In this document: one piece after another, positions 3,001-24,392 of the stretch
How the letters are laid out: the number at the start of each line of letters is the position of its first letter
Position numbering within the stretch: position 1 is the first letter of the stretch
Virus record (IMG/VR): IMGVR_UViG_3300008448_000040
Location: 14,725-78,724 of that record
Direction: 5' to 3' (one strand)
DNA length: 64,000 nucleotides
From: a virus
The notes under the pieces: generated by a model
Told to the model about the DNA's origin: nothing
Database searches by the model: none
What the model saw: only the letters and a program-made list of their open reading frames with translations
Position numbers and translations under genes: made by a program

Positions 3001-5781
3001 TGTTCCTCTGTACACCGCTTTAATTTTTTGAATGTCAGGAATACCTAGGCACCATGGTCCTTTTGGATTTGCTGATATTGCTGCACCATCAACTTTAATT
3101 AATACATTAGCGGTCAGAGATTTTGCAGTGAGAGTTGGCGCAGTAGTTTTTATATTACAAATAACATTAGCAGCTACAGATGTATTCAAACCAACACCCA
3201 GACTAACATTAGCCTGATATTGATTTGTTGCGTCTATTTCAATGTTAGCACCCGTTCTATTTTGAAGAGTGAATGGAACATTTTTGGGGAATGCCAGGGC
3301 AATATTAGCATCAATAATTGCAGGGCTATTTGTTCCACTTAGATAAAGTACGGAATCAGAGTCGATTCTTGTAATTCTTCTGAACTCTGCATTTGCTTGA
3401 ATAGTGTTAGAAAAACGAATATAATCACCAACATATAAACTGGATAAGAACGACGTACCTGTTCCTGTAACAACATTACCACTGTACGAAGAAACTGAAC
3501 CAGCTATATTTGCTGATGAGTATGAGTTTGCAGCTGGAATGACTATTAAATCAGTCTCTTGAAGACTATTAAGCACTGTCCCTACACCATAAGGGAATGT
3601 ATGCCCTGCACCATATTGAGTAACAGCATCAATTGCTCCTACACCACTCACTGAGAATGTAGTTGGTATGGTTCCTCTGAATTGATAAGAAGCACTTGAT
3701 ACATTTGAAACCGCATAGGTTCCTGATGAATAGATCAGTGCATCAAATGCTGGGTCCTTGAGCACAGCTTCTTTTGGACCCTTTGATGCTGATAGAAAGT
3801 GTCCTGTCTCACTTACTCCAGCAGTTAGGTTAACTGGAGTTGATCCTGTTGGAGAGGTTCTTAGAGAGATCGAGGTACTATTTACAGAGTTAATATAATA
3901 TCCAGTGCCGTTTTCCAAAGCACTCACCGCTGTGTTTCCAGCAGCTACTGTATACACAACATAGTCACCTTCTGTGAAATATGCCTTTGCATCTGAAATT
4001 GAAATTGTCTCACTCGTATCGTTTACATCACTTGAAGCATTGAAATTGACTGTGAATGATGTTATTCCTCTTGCCGGCTCTAAAACCAAATCAGCTGAAC
4101 CAGTCCCTGATTTAAATATTGATCTTACTTGAGAGAAAGAAAATCCTGCCTGCATTTTAACATCAAACAGGTATGCTCTGTATTGACATTCTGGCGTTCC
4201 AATTGCACCACCATCATAAACAATAGATCTAAGTCTTGCGGTTCCAATCAAGGACCCAGTATTGTTAGGTGTTTGACCATATCTGGCAGTAATACCATCA
4301 GAAGCTTTATTATACAAGTCAACGGTTACCGCTTCTTCGAAATTAAAATTACCAAGATACTCATTTACAATTACATACGATCCAAAATTAATAGACACAT
4401 CTTGATCAATATCAATTTTTGTTTCTGTTGATTTTCTAATTGGTAATCTGATTGTATCTGTAACTTCAACTCTATGTCCTCTGATATAACCAAGGCCTGA
4501 TGTTACAGCAGCAGTGATATGAGATGTAGAATTTACAGAGTTAGTTCCAACACCAATAAAATCATCAGTATAGACTCTGAAAGGAATGACGGAGAAGTTA
4601 CCCATCATATCATCAGTTCTTCTAGCCATTTCTGTCTCAACAGAATTGAATTCTGTACGAGTTCTCTGTCTAGTCACTCTTCCGTTTTCAAATTCTACCA
4701 GAGAGAAGAATCCTTCTTCAGATTTAGCATCAGCAATAGTTTTTACTACAAGATTAGCTGTTAGCTTAAGTCTATGCGCACCAGGAGCTGTATAATTACT
4801 ATATCCTTGAGCTCCATCTAGTAGAGAAGGATCTACGTTATTATTGACAATAGATTCGTTTGTTGTAAATCCAAGAGCAAGACCATTTGGTAGAGGGGAA
4901 TATTTTTCCACAATAATTTCTTGTGGATCAACTCTGACAAAATGTCCTTTTTGGAAAATAACACCTTCTGTGACTTTAGCAGCATATCCCCTACCAATAT
5001 TAGTAGCCCCACCTGTTTCAAACTGGCTGTTAGCTACAGTTAATTTAGCATAATAGTTTTTAGCAATAAATGCTGCGCCTGAACCAATGCCAGAAGTACC
5101 ACCAGAGGTGTTTGTGATTGCAACTGTAGGAGCAGTTACGTAACCTGATCCTTGTGAGGTTAGTACAATAGATCTAATCGTACCATTCGAATATGTGACT
5201 ACGTTTGCAACAGCACCAGTACCATCTCCACCAGTAATACTTACTAGATGTGAGTTATCATAACCAGTACCTCCTGATGTAACCGCAATAGATACCAACT
5301 TGTAATTTATATCGTATGACGTTAGAACATCATTCAATGCAAATGTTTTCTTTTCGGACCCACTTGAATCACCAGTGTTCAAATACTTAACGTAAAGTGT
5401 GTTAAGATCTGGGGACTGTGATTGTAAGCCAGTGACGGAATTGACGCAGATCGACTGCAGTCCAGAGGCATCGTGAACAATGTATGTATTAACATAAGCA
5501 GCAACATCTGCAGGGCTACCAACAGGATCTGCTAAAAGATCTAGAACTTTTACATAAAAATATTTGTCGTCATATGTGAAAGAGCACCCTCTGATAACAC
5601 TACCTTCTCTAAAAATATTCTGTCCAAATCTTTCTACTTGATTTTGAAGAATATCCTGAAGCTGAGTTAACTCTCTTGCCTGTACAGGAACAGCAGGTCT
5701 GAATAATACCCTATGAAAATTCTTATCTTCATTGTAATCATCGTAATAAGGATCGATGTTTAAATCTGTCTCAAGAGCCAT
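1..5781 (-). CDS. Large virion structural/baseplate protein, DUF4815/VrlC-like (3' end runs off the window)
   Basis: Not in ORF track because it is open to the edge. ATG at 5781 after GAGGA RBS; begins MALETDLNIDPYYDDYNEDKNFHRVLFRPAVPVQARELTQLQDILQNQVERFG, typical of this family; follows gp8. Confidence 0.85.
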   Translation of the reverse strand, partial: MALETDLNIDPYYDDYNEDKNFHRVLFRPAVPVQARELTQLQDILQNQVERFGQNIFREGSVIRGCSFTYDDKYFYVKVLDLLADPVGSPADVAAYVNTYIVHDASGLQSICVNSVTGLQSQSPDLNTLYVKYLNTGDSSGSEKKTFALNDVLTSYDINYKLVSIAVTSGGTGYDNSHLVSITGGDGTGAVANVVTYSNGTIRSIVLTSQGSGYVTAPTVAITNTSGGTSGIGSGAAFIAKNYYAKLTVANSQFETGGATNIGRGYAAKVTEGVIFQKGHFVRVDPQEIIVEKYSPLPNGLALGFTTNESIVNNNVDPSLLDGAQGYSNYTAPGAHRLKLTANLVVKTIADAKSEEGFFSLVEFENGRVTRQRTRTEFNSVETEMARRTDDMMGNFSVIPFRVYTDDFIGVGTNSVNSTSHITAAVTSGLGYIRGHRVEVTDTIRLPIRKSTETKIDIDQDVSINFGSYVIVNEYLGNFNFEEAVTVDLYNKASDGITARYGQTPNNTGSLIGTARLRSIVYDGGAIGTPECQYRAYLFDVKMQAGFSFSQVRSIFKSGTGSADLVLEPARGITSFTVNFNASSDVNDTSETISISDAKAYFTEGDYVVYTVAAGNTAVSALENGTGYYINSVNSTSISLRTSPTGSTPVNLTAGVSETGHFLSASKGPKEAVLKDPAFDALIYSSGTYAVSNVSSASYQFRGTIPTTFSVSGVGAIDAVTQYGAGHTFPYGVGTVLNSLQETDLIVIPAANSYSSANIAGSVSSYSGNVVTGTGTSFLSSLYVGDYIRFSNTIQANAEFRRITRIDSDSVLYLSGTNSPAIIDANIALAFPKNVPFTLQNRTGANIEIDATNQYQANVSLGVGLNTSVAANVICNIKTTAPTLTAKSLTANVLIKVDGAAISANPKGPWCLGIPDIQKIKAVYRGTGTSYNTTGTNISTNFQLDDGQRDAYYGLGYLSINPQNPITLTGTDNLTVVADVLTISTPGKYVTTESYPIDDTTPSLPSNKIRTQNIKVFKRKDGRYMSLRDSIDFRPYAANTAVLATSIGNANTVSEISKTEVFSGNKFFPVPNTLFEADIESYLKRIDAICVDALGVFEVVEGEPSNNPSPPLVPDTSTRLFNIHVAEFPSLPAKEAYDTAAGQYATLVEDFQTRRYTMQDIKDIERRIERLEYISILNLLEKKSSEVLVKSDLDPNLNRFKNGFFADGFDDYNLCDPLDPELNILIDFTASKARPYVLETRIPLKFNSDTSTNVTQKGDSIILGYTHSDPVFIEQPQATKFVNLAQDTYHYRGQLYLTPEFDNYYDIEQNFVQFDVGDGKAIDAIARSYNKLLVAGFQGSSADGKNRLFNVTAGLKVGDFSVSESVAKVHAPVLIAQSRRTNTWQVQTDLNVTSTYPQIKGTRTTDTQILGNVLNDLTLRPFIRPQKIYFQAVGLRPGARHFVFIDEKDMTSYTRPMKINDTSQGDRVILDSSGEATNLTAIGVKGDPLVPVAISSQNVEDDTNGVLIGEIEIGTDSGNQFFCGEIQIRIVDVDNINSADATTSEATAKFRAYSFEGSKSLITMKNDRYQFEGLTENRGQFTRSTYHQFNTARGCVPVAQTFRVDLSEDQATSGVFLTKVHVYFKRKDNRFGVNVQIRETENGVPGRTVLATTNLRPSQVNIADEDGQFEFTEIEFKEPVYLATGFEYAIVLHPEGFSPEYLVWTAVAGQENLRPQVSGEPYRQVVINDWGSGSLFYSTNGTAWTPIQNEDLTMKVFVATFTASGGTARFNNGDLEFLKITNQQGDFNVGERIAQISNTYLAGTITTSTTLNTNNCFTITGVGTNFTSGINPDDYAFIVYAHTTTTTTGTVSVSSGSATVTGSGTLFSTELTEGQWVVIANTHIRRVDSIANNTQLTLDSIISSTVTGQELREMTVDYDVAKVKSRA

Positions 5782-19709: not shown

Positions 19710-20229
19710 TCAAATGCTCGACCAGGCCAGATCACGTGGTCAGATTGCAGATGCTACAAAATGGTTCCAACAAACATTTAGTGATCTCAGTCCACCAACT
19801 AGTTCTATAATTAACAAGAGCGATAGATATTTAACACGTGACTTACAGATAGGTAAAATGTACCTATTTCACTACGATCCTAAACATAAAGAAAAATTAC
19901 CGCTGTATGATAAATTTCCTATCATCTTTCCTTTTGACCATGCTCCAAACGGATTCATGGGAATAAACTTTCATTATATTCCGTACATACAAAGAGCAAG
20001 ACTTTTAGATAGTCTAATGTCAGCATCCAGTAGCAAGTCCATGACAGAAGCAATGAGATTAAATCTTAGTTATGATGTATTGAAGTCGGTTGCCAATTCA
20101 AAATATTTTAAGCCTTGTATAAAACGCTACCTAAATAATCACGTTAGATCCAGGTTTCTTTTGATACCACCTTCCCAGTGGTCAAAGGCATTATTCTTAC
20201 CTCTAGAACAATTTGTATATAAAAAGTAA
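19693..20229 (+). CDS. gp2: DNA end protector gp2
   Basis: GKMYLFHYDPKHKEKLPLYDKFP, GINFHY, PCIKRYL. Confidence 0.9.
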   Translation: MAITYSQMLDQARSRGQIADATKWFQQTFSDLSPPTSSIINKSDRYLTRDLQIGKMYLFHYDPKHKEKLPLYDKFPIIFPFDHAPNGFMGINFHYIPYIQRARLLDSLMSASSSKSMTEAMRLNLSYDVLKSVANSKYFKPCIKRYLNNHVRSRFLLIPPSQWSKALFLPLEQFVYKK

Positions 20230-20945
20230 TGTTAAATTTAAGAAATTTTCAATCTAAGATTAGCGAATATGATGTTCAGCGCCCCAATTTATTTGAAGTG
20301 AAGTTCAATATACCTCGGAATCTAAAGTTTGGAGGGAATGATCGTAATGTGAGTTCATTAGTTAGAGAAGCTACAGATAATGGTTTATTGCTAACTGCTT
20401 TTTGTAGATCAGCAACACTCCCAGGTGCTGCTTTAGGTTTAGCTGAAGCAAGAAGATATGGAATTGGTCCAACAGTTAGAACACCTGTCTTTTCTTCATC
20501 AAGTCCTGATGTATCTTTGACATTCATTTCTGATTCTTATCATTTAATAAGATCTGTATTCACCGGTTGGATGAGATGTATCTACGAGTGGACTCCTGAG
20601 GGAGAGGTTGGCAAGGGTAAAAATTATCAGCTTGGATACAAAAATGATTACTCGTCTACATTAGAGGTGATAGTTTATCATGGTGAACCAGGAAAATATG
20701 AAGGAAATGGTATTCTCCAATCATTGACAACTGCTGCTTTTTCTGCAGCAGGGGTACCGTTTCTAGCATCTAACCTTTTGAGTAATGTGCCATCTTTTCC
20801 TTTGACACCTATAAAAACAGTAAGTTTGTATAAAGCATTCCCAATTAGTGTAAGTGAAATGTCATTATCACATGATTCTACAAATACAGTATCCGAATTC
20901 ACTGTTAATTTTTCTTACTATGATTGGTCCACCGAGTCATTTTGA
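20229..20945 (+). CDS. Tail-tube-like protein (gp54/gp19 fold)
   Basis: RPNLFEV, ATLPG, AFPISV, FTVNFSY. Confidence 0.7.
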   Translation: MLNLRNFQSKISEYDVQRPNLFEVKFNIPRNLKFGGNDRNVSSLVREATDNGLLLTAFCRSATLPGAALGLAEARRYGIGPTVRTPVFSSSSPDVSLTFISDSYHLIRSVFTGWMRCIYEWTPEGEVGKGKNYQLGYKNDYSSTLEVIVYHGEPGKYEGNGILQSLTTAAFSAAGVPFLASNLLSNVPSFPLTPIKTVSLYKAFPISVSEMSLSHDSTNTVSEFTVNFSYYDWSTESF

Positions 20946-20960
20946 TTATAAGGAGTTATT

Positions 20961-21671
20961 ATGGCTTTACCAAAATTGATGTACCCTACTTTTGATTTGA
21001 TTATTCCTTCAACAAAAGAAACTGTAAAATTCAGACCTTTTTTAGTCAAAGAAGAAAAACTTCTTCTGATGGCTAAGCAAGGAGAGGAAAAGAATGATAT
21101 TATTAATGTTTTAAAACAAGTAATATCAAATTGCGATGTTGATAGCAAGTTGAATGCAAACAGCTTGGCATCTTTTGATCTCGAGTACATTTTTTTGAAG
21201 TTAAGAGGTAAATCAATCAATAATGTGATTGAGCTTAGCTACACTGATCTTGAAGATGACAAACAATACAATTTTAAAATAGATGTTGATGAAATACAAA
21301 TTATACAGAATGAGGAACATAGTAATGTAATAGAATTATCTGACACATCCGGAATAGTAATGAAGTACCCAGATGCAGCGCTGATGTCGGATGTTGTTAA
21401 CAAAATTGACATGGCAGATATTTTGTTTGTTATGATTAGAGGTTGTATGGAAAAGTATTATGATGGTGACTCAATTACGTATTTCAAAGACTGTTCAGTA
21501 AAAGAAGTTGATGATTTTATTGAGAACTTGCCCACAGATGTATTAAGAAAGTTTGAAAAGTTCTTTGATACAATGCCTAGACTGTATCACAAGTTAGAAT
21601 ATGTTAACTCAAATGGAACTGAGAGAACTATTGAATTAAGAACCCTAGAAGATTTTTTTACGTTGGGCTGA
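20961..21671 (+). CDS. gp26: Baseplate hub assembly protein gp26
   Basis: MALPK, FRPFLVKEEKLLLMA, FDLEYIFLKLRGKS, FFDTMP. Confidence 0.9.
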   Translation: MALPKLMYPTFDLIIPSTKETVKFRPFLVKEEKLLLMAKQGEEKNDIINVLKQVISNCDVDSKLNANSLASFDLEYIFLKLRGKSINNVIELSYTDLEDDKQYNFKIDVDEIQIIQNEEHSNVIELSDTSGIVMKYPDAALMSDVVNKIDMADILFVMIRGCMEKYYDGDSITYFKDCSVKEVDDFIENLPTDVLRKFEKFFDTMPRLYHKLEYVNSNGTERTIELRTLEDFFTLG

Positions 21672-21841
21672 GTCATAATTCATTAGAAAATTACTATCAA
21701 ATAATTTTTATATTGGCTCAGCATCATCATTATCAAATATCTGAAATAGAGAACTTGATACCATTTGAACGAGATCTATATTTGGAGTTTTTACGAGATT
21801 TTATTAAAAGACAAGAGGAAGTAGTCAAGAATGGCAACTGA
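21659..21841 (+). CDS. gp51: gp51-like baseplate hub assembly catalyst with no ATG/GTG start; probably reached by -1 frameshift from gp26
   Basis: -1 frame reads YVGLSHNSLENYYQIIFILAQHHHYQISEIENLIPFERDLYLEFL, the gp51 motif pattern; absent from ORF track. Confidence 0.8.
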   Translation, partial: YVGLSHNSLENYYQIIFILAQHHHYQISEIENLIPFERDLYLEFLRDFIKRQEEVVKNGN

Positions 21842-24392
21842 TAATAAACAAAATGTTTATTTTATGGAATCATTGAGAGAAATGCGTGCTCAGCGTCAGC
21901 AACAGCTACGCCAGGCTGGCCAGCAGCAAAATTCACTGTCTCAGTTGAATAGAACCATGTCGTCACTAGTTGCTGTTACTAATTCTAACAGCCGCATCCT
22001 TTCACAAAATCTCAAAGAACAACAAAATGTAGTTAGAACCAATAGAGATCTATCTCGAGATATCAAAGGATTAGCATCAAGTATAACCAAGTCAATTTCA
22101 AGTCTTACAGCTAGTCTGGGACGTGGACTATCCACAAGTGCTTCTGCTGCAGCCAGAGGAATTGCTTCTACAGCAACAGGCGCTGCAGGAATAACTAGCT
22201 CCCTGGTTGATGGAATAGCAAAAGCTCTACCAGTTGCAGTGATAGGTATCATGGCAAAAGCTTTTGTGTGGGATAAACTTAATAATGATGTGAAAGATAA
22301 ACTTACTGGTTCTCTGGGTAACTTATTTTCATTCCTTTTCAGAAGTATACAACCAATTTTTGAACAATTAATAGAATCTCTGAAGGGATTGTTGAAAATG
22401 GCAGCTGTTGAAATAACAGCAGCTATGAAAGCAACAAAAGATATTATAGCACTTGCCTTCAAGGATATAACAAAACAATTTAGTGGATTTGTAGAACCAC
22501 TCAAGCACAACTATAAAGTGTTTGAAAGATTTCTAGAAAGAATGGGTGAGTTTATAAACAACTACGGCCCTGCTCTAGGAATAGCTACTGCAGGTGCTGG
22601 TGCATATGCATTATCTAGATCAACAGTTTCTGGAGCAACATCTGCAGCGACAGCAGCTACAATACGTACACCCTCATTGAATGCAGGCGCTGCAGCTGCT
22701 GAAGTACAAAGTGGTATAGCTAGTGCTGGAAGAAACAAACAAGCAATCGATTTCATGAAACAAAATGGATTCAAAGGACCTGTTGGAAGAGCTGAATTAG
22801 TTGCGGGTAGAATTTTCCTTCGCATGTTTGAAAAGGTTCCAGAAGCCACAAAAAACATAGTGATAAACTCGATGAAATTGAGAGGATTTACTGTGGCCGG
22901 TGCATTGACTGTAGCAATGGAATTCTTATGGGTTGACTGGGCAAAAAGTGAAATTGATGTTTTAGAAAAAGAAGCGTTACTTACTACTGAAGAAGCAGAT
23001 GAGCTGAGGAAGCAAATAGGAATCAAGGCAGTTGGTTCTGTTACCGGAACACTTGTTGGTGGTGCTCTCACGTACGCTGGGTCTAGTGTTATAATTGAAG
23101 CATTGAAAAAAGTTCCTAAGGTAGGTCGTGTAGTACAGTTTGGAGCGGGCGCACTTAAATTTGGAGCTACACTGTATGGTGCTTCAAAAGGAGGAGAACT
23201 TGGTGCAGAAGGTGCTGAACAACTTTATAAAGGCCTTTCTGGGATGAATCTTGTTAATTCTTCTGCTGTGGTAGATTATGATGAATTGGTTGGAAGGTTC
23301 AATGAAGGCCTTGAAAAAGGTATGTCACGTGAAGAGGCAATGAGATATGCAAAAGGTGAGATGCCGCAAGGTGCTGTCATTCCTTCAACAAATATGTCAG
23401 TAACTTCACCAGTGGGTCAGGGTAGTCTTGCAGAGGTTATATCAAAATACGAAAGTGCAACTGGTAGAAGAGGATATGATCAGCTATTCCTTGGACCTGG
23501 TGGTAAACCTTTTGTCCAAACATCTAAACCATTGACCCAAATGACTGTTGCTGAAATAAGGCAGGTGCAGAAAGAACAAGTCGCTAAGACAAGAGAAGCT
23601 GGTATTGGTAGAAGCGATAAAACTGGGAAAATCATTGGAACTGGTGCAATAGGCAAATATCAATTCACTCAAACAACTTTAGCAGAACTTTTGAAGAAAC
23701 TTGGCATTAAGGAAGATGCCATCTTTGATGAAGCTCTTCAAGATAGGCTGTTTAAAGCGATGATTCAGGAAGATTACGATGCTTTCATCAAAGGCGAATT
23801 GACGACACAAGAATTCAGTTTGTTGATTTCTAAGAGATGGGAAGCATTCAGAGGTCCAAAAGCTAAGAAAGAGTTAGATGCATATCTAGCTAAAACTAAA
23901 CTAGGAACGAGTGCAGATAGTTTACTTGCCAAAGAAGAAGTTATAAAAAATGAACCAAGTGGAGATGTTGATTATGGATCCGAGTGGATGAAAAGATTCA
24001 CATCTTACAGAGAACAAGGATACTCTGAATTGGATGCTGCCAAGAAGACAGAAGAGCGCATGGCTAAAGAAGGAGAGTCAAAAGCACAAGGATTTGTTTC
24101 ACCACTAGCTGGTTTAGTATCACCTGGTCAAATTAAAACCTTTATGGGTGGATTTGATATTGAGTCAATCAAAAAGAACTTACAAGAGGATGCAGCTCTT
24201 CTGGCGAACATGGTGAAGATTAAAGAATCTTCTACTGAAGGTGGTAGTAATGTAGTTAATAACTTCAACATTCAAGGTGGGGGTAGTAGCGGCTATAGTC
24301 CTACAACAACTAGCCCACAGCCTGGAATGGTTCGCAGCCATGATGCGTATTTCAGCTTCCACGCAGCTACCAATAGATTCAACATGCAATAA
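21831..24392 (+). CDS. Tape-measure-like protein with lysozyme-like domain
   Basis: Ala/Gly-rich helical protein after gp26/gp51; SKYES..GYD, LTQMTVAEI, GAIGKYQF..TL, FDEALQDRL. Confidence 0.7.
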   Translation: MATDNKQNVYFMESLREMRAQRQQQLRQAGQQQNSLSQLNRTMSSLVAVTNSNSRILSQNLKEQQNVVRTNRDLSRDIKGLASSITKSISSLTASLGRGLSTSASAAARGIASTATGAAGITSSLVDGIAKALPVAVIGIMAKAFVWDKLNNDVKDKLTGSLGNLFSFLFRSIQPIFEQLIESLKGLLKMAAVEITAAMKATKDIIALAFKDITKQFSGFVEPLKHNYKVFERFLERMGEFINNYGPALGIATAGAGAYALSRSTVSGATSAATAATIRTPSLNAGAAAAEVQSGIASAGRNKQAIDFMKQNGFKGPVGRAELVAGRIFLRMFEKVPEATKNIVINSMKLRGFTVAGALTVAMEFLWVDWAKSEIDVLEKEALLTTEEADELRKQIGIKAVGSVTGTLVGGALTYAGSSVIIEALKKVPKVGRVVQFGAGALKFGATLYGASKGGELGAEGAEQLYKGLSGMNLVNSSAVVDYDELVGRFNEGLEKGMSREEAMRYAKGEMPQGAVIPSTNMSVTSPVGQGSLAEVISKYESATGRRGYDQLFLGPGGKPFVQTSKPLTQMTVAEIRQVQKEQVAKTREAGIGRSDKTGKIIGTGAIGKYQFTQTTLAELLKKLGIKEDAIFDEALQDRLFKAMIQEDYDAFIKGELTTQEFSLLISKRWEAFRGPKAKKELDAYLAKTKLGTSADSLLAKEEVIKNEPSGDVDYGSEWMKRFTSYREQGYSELDAAKKTEERMAKEGESKAQGFVSPLAGLVSPGQIKTFMGGFDIESIKKNLQEDAALLANMVKIKESSTEGGSNVVNNFNIQGGGSSGYSPTTTSPQPGMVRSHDAYFSFHAATNRFNMQ

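What the first reader, a model, noticed from the sequence alone, without database searches (positions are those of the whole stretch)
21635..21841. Probable -1 frameshift joining gp26 to a start-less gp51, upstream of the tape measure (G/GT-like arrangement in a T4-like phage)
Seen: gp26 ends GAT TTT TTT ACG TTG GGC TGA, which places a T-TTT-TTT heptamer (21653-21659) in the correct X XXY YYZ phase. The -1 frame is open from 21635 to 21841 and encodes a gp51 homologue (HNSLENYY...QHH...EIENLIPFERDLY). That frame has no ATG or GTG, and its first TTG lies inside the conserved region. A -1 slip gives a 293-aa gp26-gp51 fusion beside the 236-aa gp26. Known: long-tailed phages make tail chaperones G and GT by frameshifting just upstream of the tape measure, whereas T4 gp26 and gp51 are treated as separate genes. 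Inference: gp26/gp51 are the T4-superfamily counterpart of G/GT. Alternatives: CTG reinitiation at 21668 (CTGA overlap) or transcriptional slippage.
Basis: partly seen in the sequence, partly recalled or inferred. Interest (0 to 1): 0.85.

Follow-up and report, generated by a model that had tools for sequence, protein, structure and literature searches.

The report
Frameshifted tail chaperone in T4-like phage
This uncultured freshwater T4-like phage most likely makes a short and a long form of its tail-assembly chaperone from one gene by a programmed -1 ribosomal slip on a run of seven T's, which is real and deeply conserved but was already described for T4-like phages in 2022.

Summary
The gp26-like ORF (20961-21671, 236 aa, PF12322) carries an in-phase T TTT TTT heptamer at 21653-21659. 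The -1 frame is open from there to 21841 and encodes a gp51-like domain with no ATG or GTG; its first TTG lies inside the conserved core.

- **Conservation:** in 111 related loci the gp51 domain sits in the -1 frame in 110, and an in-phase T TTT TTN heptamer is present in 108.
- **Codon signature:** the codon before the heptamer always ends in T although its amino acid varies. The first Phe codon is always TTT; the second is free.
- **No start codon:** half the loci have no start codon before the conserved core.
- **T4 control:** T4 gp51 is a one-ORF protein colinear with the predicted 293-aa fusion. T4 gp26, which needs no shift, codes the same Phe-Phe as G TTC TTT.
- **Copy number:** T4 has two PF12322 genes; nine other complete genomes have one.
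- **Fold:** the gp26 N-domain has the tail-assembly-chaperone fold.
- **Not an error:** contigs from three independent studies show no indel.

However, Vladimirov, Gautam & Davidson (Virology 2022) already identified gp26/gp51 as the T4-like chaperones. This is a new member of a known kind, still without experimental proof. The scan had also noted this same stretch in another window.

The parts
20229..20945 (+). Tail-tube-like protein (238 aa) immediately upstream of the chaperone gene
   Evidence: PHROG 45 'tail tube', E 6.6e-31. Positional counterpart of the genes annotated 'tail tube' in HTVC008M, S-CREM1 and phiN3.
20961..21671 (+). Chaperone short form (TAC-N), the gp26-like ORF: 236 aa, with AAGGAG at 20950-20955 upstream of the ATG
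   Evidence: PF12322 T4_baseplate, E 6.2e-51. PHROG 150, E 4.6e-56. AlphaFold2 model has mean pLDDT 86.5. Residues 1-95 match the tail-assembly-chaperone fold: 3fgx Z 8.1, 2ob9 (HK97 chaperone) Z 7.2, 3klu Z 6.8.
21653..21659 (+). Slippery heptamer T TTT TTT in X XXY YYZ phase, three codons before the 0-frame stop
   Evidence: Sequence. An in-phase T TTT TTN is conserved in 108 of 111 related loci, with a nucleotide-level signature.
21659..21841 (+). Chaperone C-terminal extension (gp51-like), 60 codons in the -1 frame plus TGA, reached only by a -1 shift. The fusion product is 293 aa.
   Evidence: PHROG 634, E 6.6e-20, and the C-terminal end of PHROG 150. No ATG or GTG; first TTG at 21713. 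Colinear with T4 gp51 residues about 200-249.
21667..21722 (+). Candidate stimulatory stem-loop. A 9-bp stem pairs 21667-21675 (GCTGAGTCA) with 21714-21722 (TGGCTCAGC). It starts 7 nt after the heptamer.
   Evidence: RNAalifold and pair counts on 35 clade members. 93% of cells are paired against 21-35% when the partner is slid. Covariation is weak: 3 pairs with changes on both sides. The 70-nt folding energy is at median percentile 0.053 in the clade and 0.09-0.12 in the window. Both arms are coding, so this is suggestive only.
21831..24392 (+). Presumed tape measure / gp29 counterpart (853 aa) with a lysozyme-like region near residues 520-700. Its ATG overlaps the end of the -1 ORF by 11 nt.
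   Evidence: Assigned by position and size only; no tape-measure profile hit. The positional counterpart in HTVC008M hits tape-measure PHROGs at E 8e-12. The ESM Atlas neighbours include tail-tip lysozyme and SLT clusters.

Best explanation
The gp26-like gene and the start-less gp51-like ORF are one tail-assembly-chaperone gene decoded in two ways.

- Most ribosomes terminate at TGA 21669-21671 and make the 236-aa short form (TAC-N).
- A minority slip back one base on T TTT TTT (21653-21659), with the two tRNA-Phe re-pairing. They continue in the -1 frame to 21841 and make a 293-aa long form (TAC-NC).
- The long form has the same domain layout as T4 gp51.

By analogy with lambda G/GT, the common N-part would coat the tape measure encoded just downstream, and the extension on the minor long form would recruit tail-tube subunits.

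Shown here: the sequence layout, its conservation, the nucleotide-level signature of a slippery site, the homology to T4 gp26/gp51, and the chaperone fold. Inferred: that slippage is ribosomal, its efficiency, the role of the downstream stem, and the protein partners.
For: 1. Layout. In-phase heptamer, open -1 frame, gp51 homology, and no start codon.

2. Survey of 111 loci: 93 IMG/VR contigs and 18 named phages, with gp26 identity down to about 20%.
- The gp51 domain is in the -1 frame in 110.
- T TTT TTN is in phase in 108.
- The 0-frame stop falls 0-3 codons after the heptamer in all 108.

3. Nucleotide-level signature.
- The preceding codon is GAT, AGT, TCT, AAT, ACT or GCT. It always ends in T although the residue is D, S, N, T or A.
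- The first Phe codon is TTT in all 108 loci with the heptamer.
- The second codon is free. In the 105 loci where the script found it: TTT 58, TTC 46, TTG 1.
- Background in the same genes: TTT is 66% of Phe codons, and T-ending codons are 36-75% by residue.
- Probability from codon usage alone is 10^-17.5 over 46 clusters at 60% identity, and 10^-5.9 over 17 clusters at 50%.

4. Start codons. 51 of 111 loci (26 of 51 clusters) have no ATG, GTG or TTG between the heptamer and the conserved core. Yet the -1 peptide right after Phe-Phe is conserved: an aromatic or basic residue, a hydrophobic residue, then ...L-S-H..L..YY.

5. T4 comparison.
- T4 gp51 (249 aa) is PF12322 plus the same C-terminal extension in one ORF. 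It aligns colinearly across the junction.
- T4 gp26 ends with the same Phe-Phe motif, coded by the non-slippery G TTC TTT.

6. Copy number. T4 has two PF12322 genes. HTVC008M, P-SSM2, LPCS28, Aeromonas 65.2, 1.081.O, phiN3, Cr30, Cygsa01 and VAP7 each have one.

7. The three loci with a degenerate heptamer (Cygsa01, VAP7, D510) all have an ATG overlapping the gp26 stop.

8. A natural in-frame fusion of 287 aa exists.

9. Chaperone fold of the N-domain.

10. No indel in assemblies from three independent studies.

11. Citing papers report that poly-T slippery sequences are known in the TAC-N genes of T4-like phages.
Against: - No protein, ribosome-profiling or reporter data exist for any member that I could find.
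- The one RNA contig laid (21672-21812) does not cover the heptamer.
- Phe-Phe is also a conserved protein motif; T4 gp26 keeps it. Part of the conservation is therefore at the amino-acid level.
- 41 of 111 loci do have an ATG near the stop, so independent translation of the small ORF cannot be excluded there.
- A downstream stimulatory structure is not general. The 50-nt folding energy is at median percentile 0.34 family-wide. LPCS28, Aeromonas 65.2, syn9 and HTVC008M show none.
- The stem in the window's clade lies in coding sequence and shows little covariation.
- S-SCSM1 has the gp51 domain in the +1 frame with its own ATG.
[quoted passage not shown] I could not read the paper to see how far that claim extends.
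Confidence: 0.75

Rival explanations
1. Transcriptional slippage. RNA polymerase stutters on the T7 template run and adds one U to a fraction of transcripts. Normal translation of those mRNAs then yields the same 293-aa fusion.
For: The site is a homopolymer run: 7 T here and 8 T in HTVC008M and L036. The same fusion and the same conservation of the run would result. The 2022 paper's title mentions a non-translational mechanism, though citing text attributes that to separate genes.
Against: About half the lineages have only six T's (T TTT TTC), which is short for efficient polymerase slippage by established knowledge of bacterial RNAP slippage. The Z base varies T/C/G, and selection has not lengthened the run. 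The run is always in X XXY YYZ phase. The 0-frame stop is kept within 0-3 codons. The window's clade has a stem 7 nt downstream. Three DNA assemblies show a clean T7.
Confidence: 0.1
2. There is no fusion. The gp51-like peptide is made on its own by termination-reinitiation or non-canonical initiation, at CTG 21668 overlapping the TGA or at TTG 21713, and acts as a separate small subunit.
For: 41 of 111 relatives have an ATG at +2 or +5 from the gp26 stop, in TAATG/TGATG-type overlaps typical of translational coupling. 15 more have GTG or TTG. Three lineages lack a full heptamer and do have such an ATG. Databases annotate gp51 as a separate ORF.
Against: - In the window the only candidates are a CTG with no Shine-Dalgarno sequence, or a TTG that would remove 18 conserved residues.
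- The equivalent codon in relatives is CTG, TTG, ATG, CTA or CTC, so it is a Leu/Met position and not a start.
- Annotated starts in HTVC008M, syn9 and S-RIM8 cut off conserved sequence.
- Residues between the heptamer and that codon are conserved in the -1 frame.
- This model does not explain why the heptamer is fixed at synonymous sites.
- T4 gp51 and P0002 show that the extension functions when fused.
Confidence: 0.1
3. Artefact or decay. A one-base assembly error in a homopolymer, or a recently broken gp51-type gene.
For: Homopolymers are error-prone. One database protein (P0002) is an uninterrupted fusion.
Against: Contigs from three independent studies agree on T7 with no indel. The 0-frame stop and the -1 phase are conserved in 110 of 111 loci across families that share only 20-45% gp26 identity.
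Confidence: 0.01

Closest known systems
Tail assembly chaperones of T4-like phages (gp26/gp51), Vladimirov, Gautam & Davidson, Virology 566:9-15, 2022
   Same: Same protein family (PF12322). Same idea: gp26 is the short form (TAC-N) and gp51 is the long form (TAC-NC). Citing papers report poly-T slippery sequences in TAC-N genes of T4-like phages, and that some T4-like phages encode the short and long forms as two genes. My T4 analysis reproduces this.
   Different: The window is an uncultured freshwater phage not in that work as far as I can tell. I could not read the paper. I therefore cannot say whether the codon-level statistics, the start-less fraction, the heptamer-less lineages with ATG, or the clade-specific stem are new.
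Lambda gpG/gpGT and the conserved -1 frameshift of long-tailed phage tail assembly genes (Xu, Hendrix & Duda 2004; cited from my own knowledge)
   Same: Two overlapping ORFs just upstream of the tape measure. The second is in the -1 frame without a start. The slippery heptamer lies a few codons before the first stop. The N-domain has the same chaperone fold as HK97 2ob9.
   Different: The heptamer is T TTT TTY, not G GGA AAG. The N-terminal protein is about 100 residues longer, with an extra domain at residues 96-236. The C-extension is only about 60 aa. There is no detectable sequence similarity to G or T.
T4 gp51 (baseplate hub assembly catalyst) and T4 gp26
   Same: gp51 has the architecture of the predicted fusion: PF12322 plus the C-extension, matching PHROG 150 positions 13-280 of 282. 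gp26 corresponds to the unshifted product and ends with the same GL..FF motif.
   Different: In T4 these are two paralogous genes on opposite strands, only about 20% identical, with no frameshift. gp27 and gp28 lie between gene 51 and the tape measure gene 29. Full-length gp51 of this type is found in 1,375 phage records, mostly phages of Enterobacteriaceae, Acinetobacter and Aeromonas.
T7/T3 gene 10A/10B, and the GTTTTT site of Vandenendeviridae/Andersonviridae chaperone genes (PMC12846349)
   Same: A -1 slip on U-rich Phe codons in phage structural genes.
   Different: Different genes and families. Those sites are not full X XXY YYZ T-runs.

Membership tests
PF12322 T4_baseplate (gp26/gp51 family) | Profile match above the curated cut-off | tested here: met
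   E 6.2e-51, 173.6 bits against a 24.5-bit cut-off, residues 10-233. PHROG 150, E 4.6e-56.
T4 gp51-type long form (TAC-NC) | PF12322 domain followed by the conserved C-terminal extension of about 50-60 aa (PHROG 634 / end of PHROG 150) | tested here: met
   Met only through the -1 join. The extension peptide hits PHROG 634 at E 6.6e-20 and PHROG 150 positions 237-276. It is colinear with T4 gp51.
Frameshifted tail assembly chaperone (G/GT type) | Second ORF in the -1 frame, overlapping the end of the first and lacking its own start | tested here: met
   Conserved in 110 of 111 loci; 51 loci have no start codon.
Frameshifted tail assembly chaperone (G/GT type) | In-phase slippery heptamer X XXY YYZ near the end of the first ORF, conserved beyond coding needs | tested here: met
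   T TTT TTT at 21653-21659. Present in 108 of 111 loci. Synonymous-site constraint gives 10^-17.5. T4 gp26 serves as a negative control.
Frameshifted tail assembly chaperone (G/GT type) | Gene lies immediately upstream of the tape measure gene | tested here: inconclusive
   The downstream 853-aa ORF overlaps the -1 ORF by 11 nt but has no tape-measure profile hit. Its positional counterpart in HTVC008M hits tape-measure PHROGs at E 8e-12, and Cr30's is annotated as tape measure.
Frameshifted tail assembly chaperone (G/GT type) | N-terminal domain with the chaperone 'spiral' fold | tested here: met
   In the VIA-align wide search the top three of 48,161 chains are 3fgx (Z 8.1, rmsd 3.9, 86 aligned), 2ob9 HK97 tail assembly chaperone (Z 7.2, rmsd 3.3, 81 aligned) and 3klu YqbN (Z 6.8). 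All align to model residues 1-95. The next hit has Z 5.0. Foldseek alone gave nothing significant, so the strength is moderate.
Frameshifted tail assembly chaperone (G/GT type) | Two proteins made in a fixed ratio, both needed for tail assembly and absent from virions; binding to the tape measure and tail tube | not testable with these tools
   Needs proteomics, genetics and binding assays.
Stimulated -1 frameshift with a downstream RNA structure | Conserved stem-loop or pseudoknot 5-9 nt after the heptamer, supported by covariation | tested here: inconclusive
   In the window's clade a 9-bp stem lies 7 nt downstream, with 93% of cells paired but weak covariation. No common structure was found in cyanophages or family-wide.

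The most novel reading that the evidence does not exclude
The T4 superfamily may hold three interconvertible solutions to making a short and a long tail chaperone.

1. A -1 slip on T TTT TTY from a single gene. This is seen in most lineages, including this phage, where a clade-specific long-range stem 7 nt downstream may act as the stimulator.
2. Gene duplication into separate gp26 and gp51 genes, as in T4 and its close relatives.
3. In lineages with a degenerate heptamer and an ATG overlapping the stop (Cygsa01, VAP7, D510), a free-standing C-terminal peptide that is never fused.

The third case would contradict the view that the extension must be covalently tethered to the chaperone body.
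Probability: 0.25. Interest if true: 0.5.

Novelty: new member of a known kind. Interest (0 to 1): 0.3.

Why it matters
- **Annotation.** In cyanophage, pelagiphage and many other T4-like genomes, 'gp51' is filed as an independent mini-gene, often with a start that cuts off conserved residues, or it is not annotated at all. Treating it as the -1 extension of gp26 corrects a core structural gene in hundreds of environmental phage genomes.
- **A natural experiment.** The family shows three states: a single frameshifted gene, duplicated short and long genes, and possibly split genes. This could show why tail chaperones need a minor long form.
- **T4 biology.** It links the long-puzzling 'catalytic' T4 gp51 to tape-measure and tube assembly.

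None of this is conceptually new after the 2022 paper. The value here is confirmation, quantification and a new freshwater member.

Tried and rejected
- **Literature.** Searches on gp26, gp51 and frameshift terms found nothing direct. Prior art surfaced only through the PRFect paper. The Vladimirov 2022 paper is not held.
I could not inspect the DNA behind the in-frame fusion P0002.
- **Alignment too diverse.** A 7-sequence alignment worked.
- **Tape measure.** BLASTP of the 853-aa ORF against the HTVC008M tape measure was not significant. No tape-measure profile hit was found.
- **Solved relatives.** A profile search of the PDB by sequence found nothing. Foldseek against the PDB found nothing significant.
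- **RNA structure.** No consensus structure was found in 37 cyanophage-type junctions, although individual hairpins exist, for example in P-SSM2. The 50-nt folding-energy test was not enriched family-wide.
- **RNA run.** Run X20 covers only 21672-21812, so it says nothing about U insertion or expression of the junction.
- **Fusion protein not submitted.** The 293-aa fusion could not be given to the fold or search tools, because a -1 join cannot be expressed as an unchanged translation.
- **Upstream stimulator rejected.** A Shine-Dalgarno-like GAGG about 10 nt upstream, from the Glu-Gly codons, is seen in cyanophages but is absent in the window's clade.

Full report
**What is there**

The window comes from an uncultured T4-like myovirus.
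- The region carries homologues of gp53, gp48, gp4, gp2, a tail-tube-like protein, gp26, a large presumed tape measure, gp32 and gp59.
- Its nearest named relatives are Pelagibacter phage HTVC008M and the cyanomyoviruses (Kyanoviridae).
- Near-identical DNA occurs in freshwater and aquaculture metagenomes from about ten studies.

The gp26-like ORF runs 20961-21671 (236 aa; PF12322, E 6.2e-51).
- It ends GAT TTT TTT ACG TTG GGC TGA, so T TTT TTT (21653-21659) sits in X XXY YYZ phase.
- The -1 frame is open 21635-21841.
- From 21659 the -1 frame encodes 60 residues that match the gp51 PHROG (634, E 6.6e-20). They also match the last 40 positions of the gp26/gp51 PHROG 150.
- That frame has no ATG or GTG. 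Its first TTG (21713) is inside the conserved core.
- A -1 slip would give 233 + 60 = 293 aa.

**Chance and artefact**

- Among all ATG-ORFs of 100 aa or more in the window, an in-phase T TTT TTN occurs 9 times in 15,698 codons. Only this one lies in the last ten codons of an ORF, and only it opens a long (56-codon) -1 extension.
- Contigs from three independent studies bridge the T-run with no inserted or deleted letters.

**Comparative survey**

I collected 93 IMG/VR loci and 18 named phages. They span Kyanoviridae, a pelagiphage, rhizobiophages, Cr30, Stenotrophomonas, Pseudomonas, Vibrio and Aeromonas phages, Ackermannviridae and non-Tevenvirinae Straboviridae.

- An HMM built from the -1 peptides finds the gp51-like domain downstream of gp26 in 111 of 112 loci. 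The exception is a truncated contig. The domain is in the -1 frame in 110 loci.
- An in-phase T TTT TTN heptamer is present in 108 of 111 loci. The 0-frame stop follows it within 0-3 codons in all 108.
- The constraint is on nucleotides and not only on residues.
  - The codon before the heptamer is GAT, AGT, TCT, AAT, ACT or GCT. Five different amino acids and both serine codon families occur, but the codon always ends in T.
  - The first Phe codon is TTT in all 108 loci with the heptamer.
  - The second codon is free. In the 105 loci where the script found it: TTT 58, TTC 46, TTG 1.
  - In the rest of the same genes TTT is 66% of Phe codons, and T-ending codons are 36-75% depending on the residue.
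  - Codon usage alone gives 10^-17.5 over 46 clusters at 60% identity, or 10^-5.9 over 17 very conservative clusters at 50%.
- In 51 loci (26 of 51 clusters) no ATG, GTG or TTG lies between the heptamer and the conserved core.
- The -1 peptide is conserved from the residue right after Phe-Phe.
- Annotated gp51 starts in HTVC008M, syn9 and S-RIM8 cut off conserved residues. In Syn30, LPCS28 and Aeromonas 65.2 the ORF is not annotated at all.

**T4 as the key control**

- In T4, gene 26 and gene 51 are divergently transcribed.
- Both proteins are PF12322. gp51 (249 aa) additionally carries the C-terminal extension in frame: it matches PHROG 150 positions 13-280 of 282, and PHROG 634. gp26 (208 aa) stops where the marine and freshwater gp26 stops.
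- In the alignment, T4 gp51 continues colinearly through the point where the window needs the -1 shift.
- T4 gp26 keeps the Phe-Phe motif but codes it as G TTC TTT, which is not slippery.
- T4 has two PF12322 genes. Nine other complete genomes have only one: HTVC008M, P-SSM2, LPCS28, Aeromonas 65.2, 1.081.O, phiN3, Cr30, Cygsa01 and VAP7.
- Full-length T4-type gp51 occurs in 1,375 phage records, mostly phages of Enterobacteriaceae, Acinetobacter and Aeromonas.
- The simplest picture is therefore one gene with two products by recoding in most of the superfamily, and two genes in T4 and its close relatives.

**Exceptions**

- Cygsa01, VAP7 and D510 have only a partial T-run (NTT TTY). All three have an ATG overlapping the gp26 stop.
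- S-SCSM1 has the domain in the +1 frame with its own ATG.
- One metagenomic protein (P0002, 287 aa, a single contig) is an uninterrupted fusion that lacks the slip region.

**Mechanism**

Ribosomal -1 slippage is favoured over polymerase stuttering for four reasons.
- Half the lineages have only six T's.
- The Z base is not driven to T.
- The phase is invariant.
- The 0-frame stop is always adjacent.

In the window's clade a 9-bp stem pairs 21667-21675 with 21714-21722.
- It starts 7 nt after the heptamer.
- 93% of cells pair across 35 sequences, against 21-35% for slid controls.
- Only three pairs show changes on both sides, and both arms are coding.
- The 70 nt after the site fold more stably than most of each locus: median percentile 0.053 in the clade and 0.09-0.12 for the window.
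- No common structure exists in cyanophages or across the family, and several members have none.
- I treat the stem as a candidate stimulator and not as a finding.

Reinitiation at CTG 21668 is unlikely. There is no Shine-Dalgarno sequence, and that codon varies among CTG, TTG, ATG, CTA and CTC in relatives.

**What it works like**

- An AlphaFold2 model of gp26 has mean pLDDT 86.5.
- In the wide structural search, the best three of 48,161 chains are two prophage proteins of the chaperone fold and the HK97 tail assembly chaperone. The scores are 3fgx Z 8.1, 2ob9 Z 7.2 and 3klu Z 6.8. All align to residues 1-95, clear of the next hit at Z 5.0.
- Foldseek alone was not significant.
- The gene sits between a tail-tube-like gene and an 853-aa ORF that overlaps the -1 ORF by 11 nt. 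That ORF is the positional counterpart of tape measures in HTVC008M and Cr30. It has no tape-measure profile hit itself, only a lysozyme-like region.
- The lambda V-G/GT-H logic fits, but the protein partners are inferred.

**Novelty**

- The PRFect paper (PMC10885494) states that some T4-like phages carry one short and one long fusion gene instead of frameshifting.
- PMC12846349 states that poly-T slippery sequences are known in TAC-N genes of T4-like phages.
- Both cite Vladimirov, Gautam & Davidson, Virology 566:9-15 (2022). I could not read that paper.
- A GenBank annotation already calls the Acinetobacter homologue a 'tape measure protein assembly chaperone'.

This locus is a new, uncultured freshwater member. 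What may add to the literature is the quantification, the T4 codon control, the copy-number correlation, the heptamer-less lineages with ATG, and the clade-specific stem. I know of no experimental demonstration of the fusion in any T4-like phage.

Noticed in passing
L019:1905-2104 (Synechococcus phage S-SCSM1, NC_070962): This is the only locus of 111 in which the gp51-like domain lies in the +1 frame with its own ATG, although the T TTT TTC heptamer is retained. It may be a true escape from recoding or a one-base error in that record.
   Followed up: partly
P0002 (ENA metagenome protein, 287 aa): A natural uninterrupted gp26-gp51 fusion that lacks about 8 residues around the slip site.
   Followed up: partly
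L022, L027, L028 (Pseudomonas phage Cygsa01, Vibrio phages VAP7 and D510): The heptamer is degenerate (C ATT TTC, C GTT TTT, A CTT TTC), and an ATG overlaps the gp26 stop (TAATG). These may be split chaperones or weak tetranucleotide slippage. The GTTTTT in VAP7 matches the motif reported for Vandenendeviridae and Andersonviridae chaperone genes.
   Followed up: partly
window 21831-24392: The presumed tape measure (853 aa) has no tape-measure family hit but has a lysozyme/SLT-like region near residues 520-700. Cyanophage counterparts are annotated as endolysin or M15 peptidase. Its ATG overlaps the end of the -1 ORF by 11 nt, with GAGGA about 10 nt upstream.
   Followed up: partly
L002:4218-4250 (P-SSM2) and related cyanophage loci: An 11-bp hairpin starts 5-6 nt after the heptamer and encloses the annotated gp51 ATG. 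L075 shows a compensatory T-A to G-C change. Other subclades have different hairpins centred on a CATATG palindrome at the same place.
   Followed up: partly
L016:7803-8090 (T4 gene 26'): T4 annotates an internal-start product 26' (95 aa) within gene 26. gene 25 starts on the last base of the gene 26 stop, in the -1 frame. So T4 gp26 also gives two products, by a different route.
   Followed up: no
L004, L005, L007 near position 3202: Some clade members have a second in-phase heptamer, T TTG GGC or T TTG GGT, two codons after the T-run and just before the stop.
   Followed up: no
window as a whole: The phage's gene content looks like that of marine cyanophages and pelagiphages, yet near-identical DNA is found in freshwater, lake and aquaculture metagenomes from about ten studies. 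The host is unknown.
   Followed up: no
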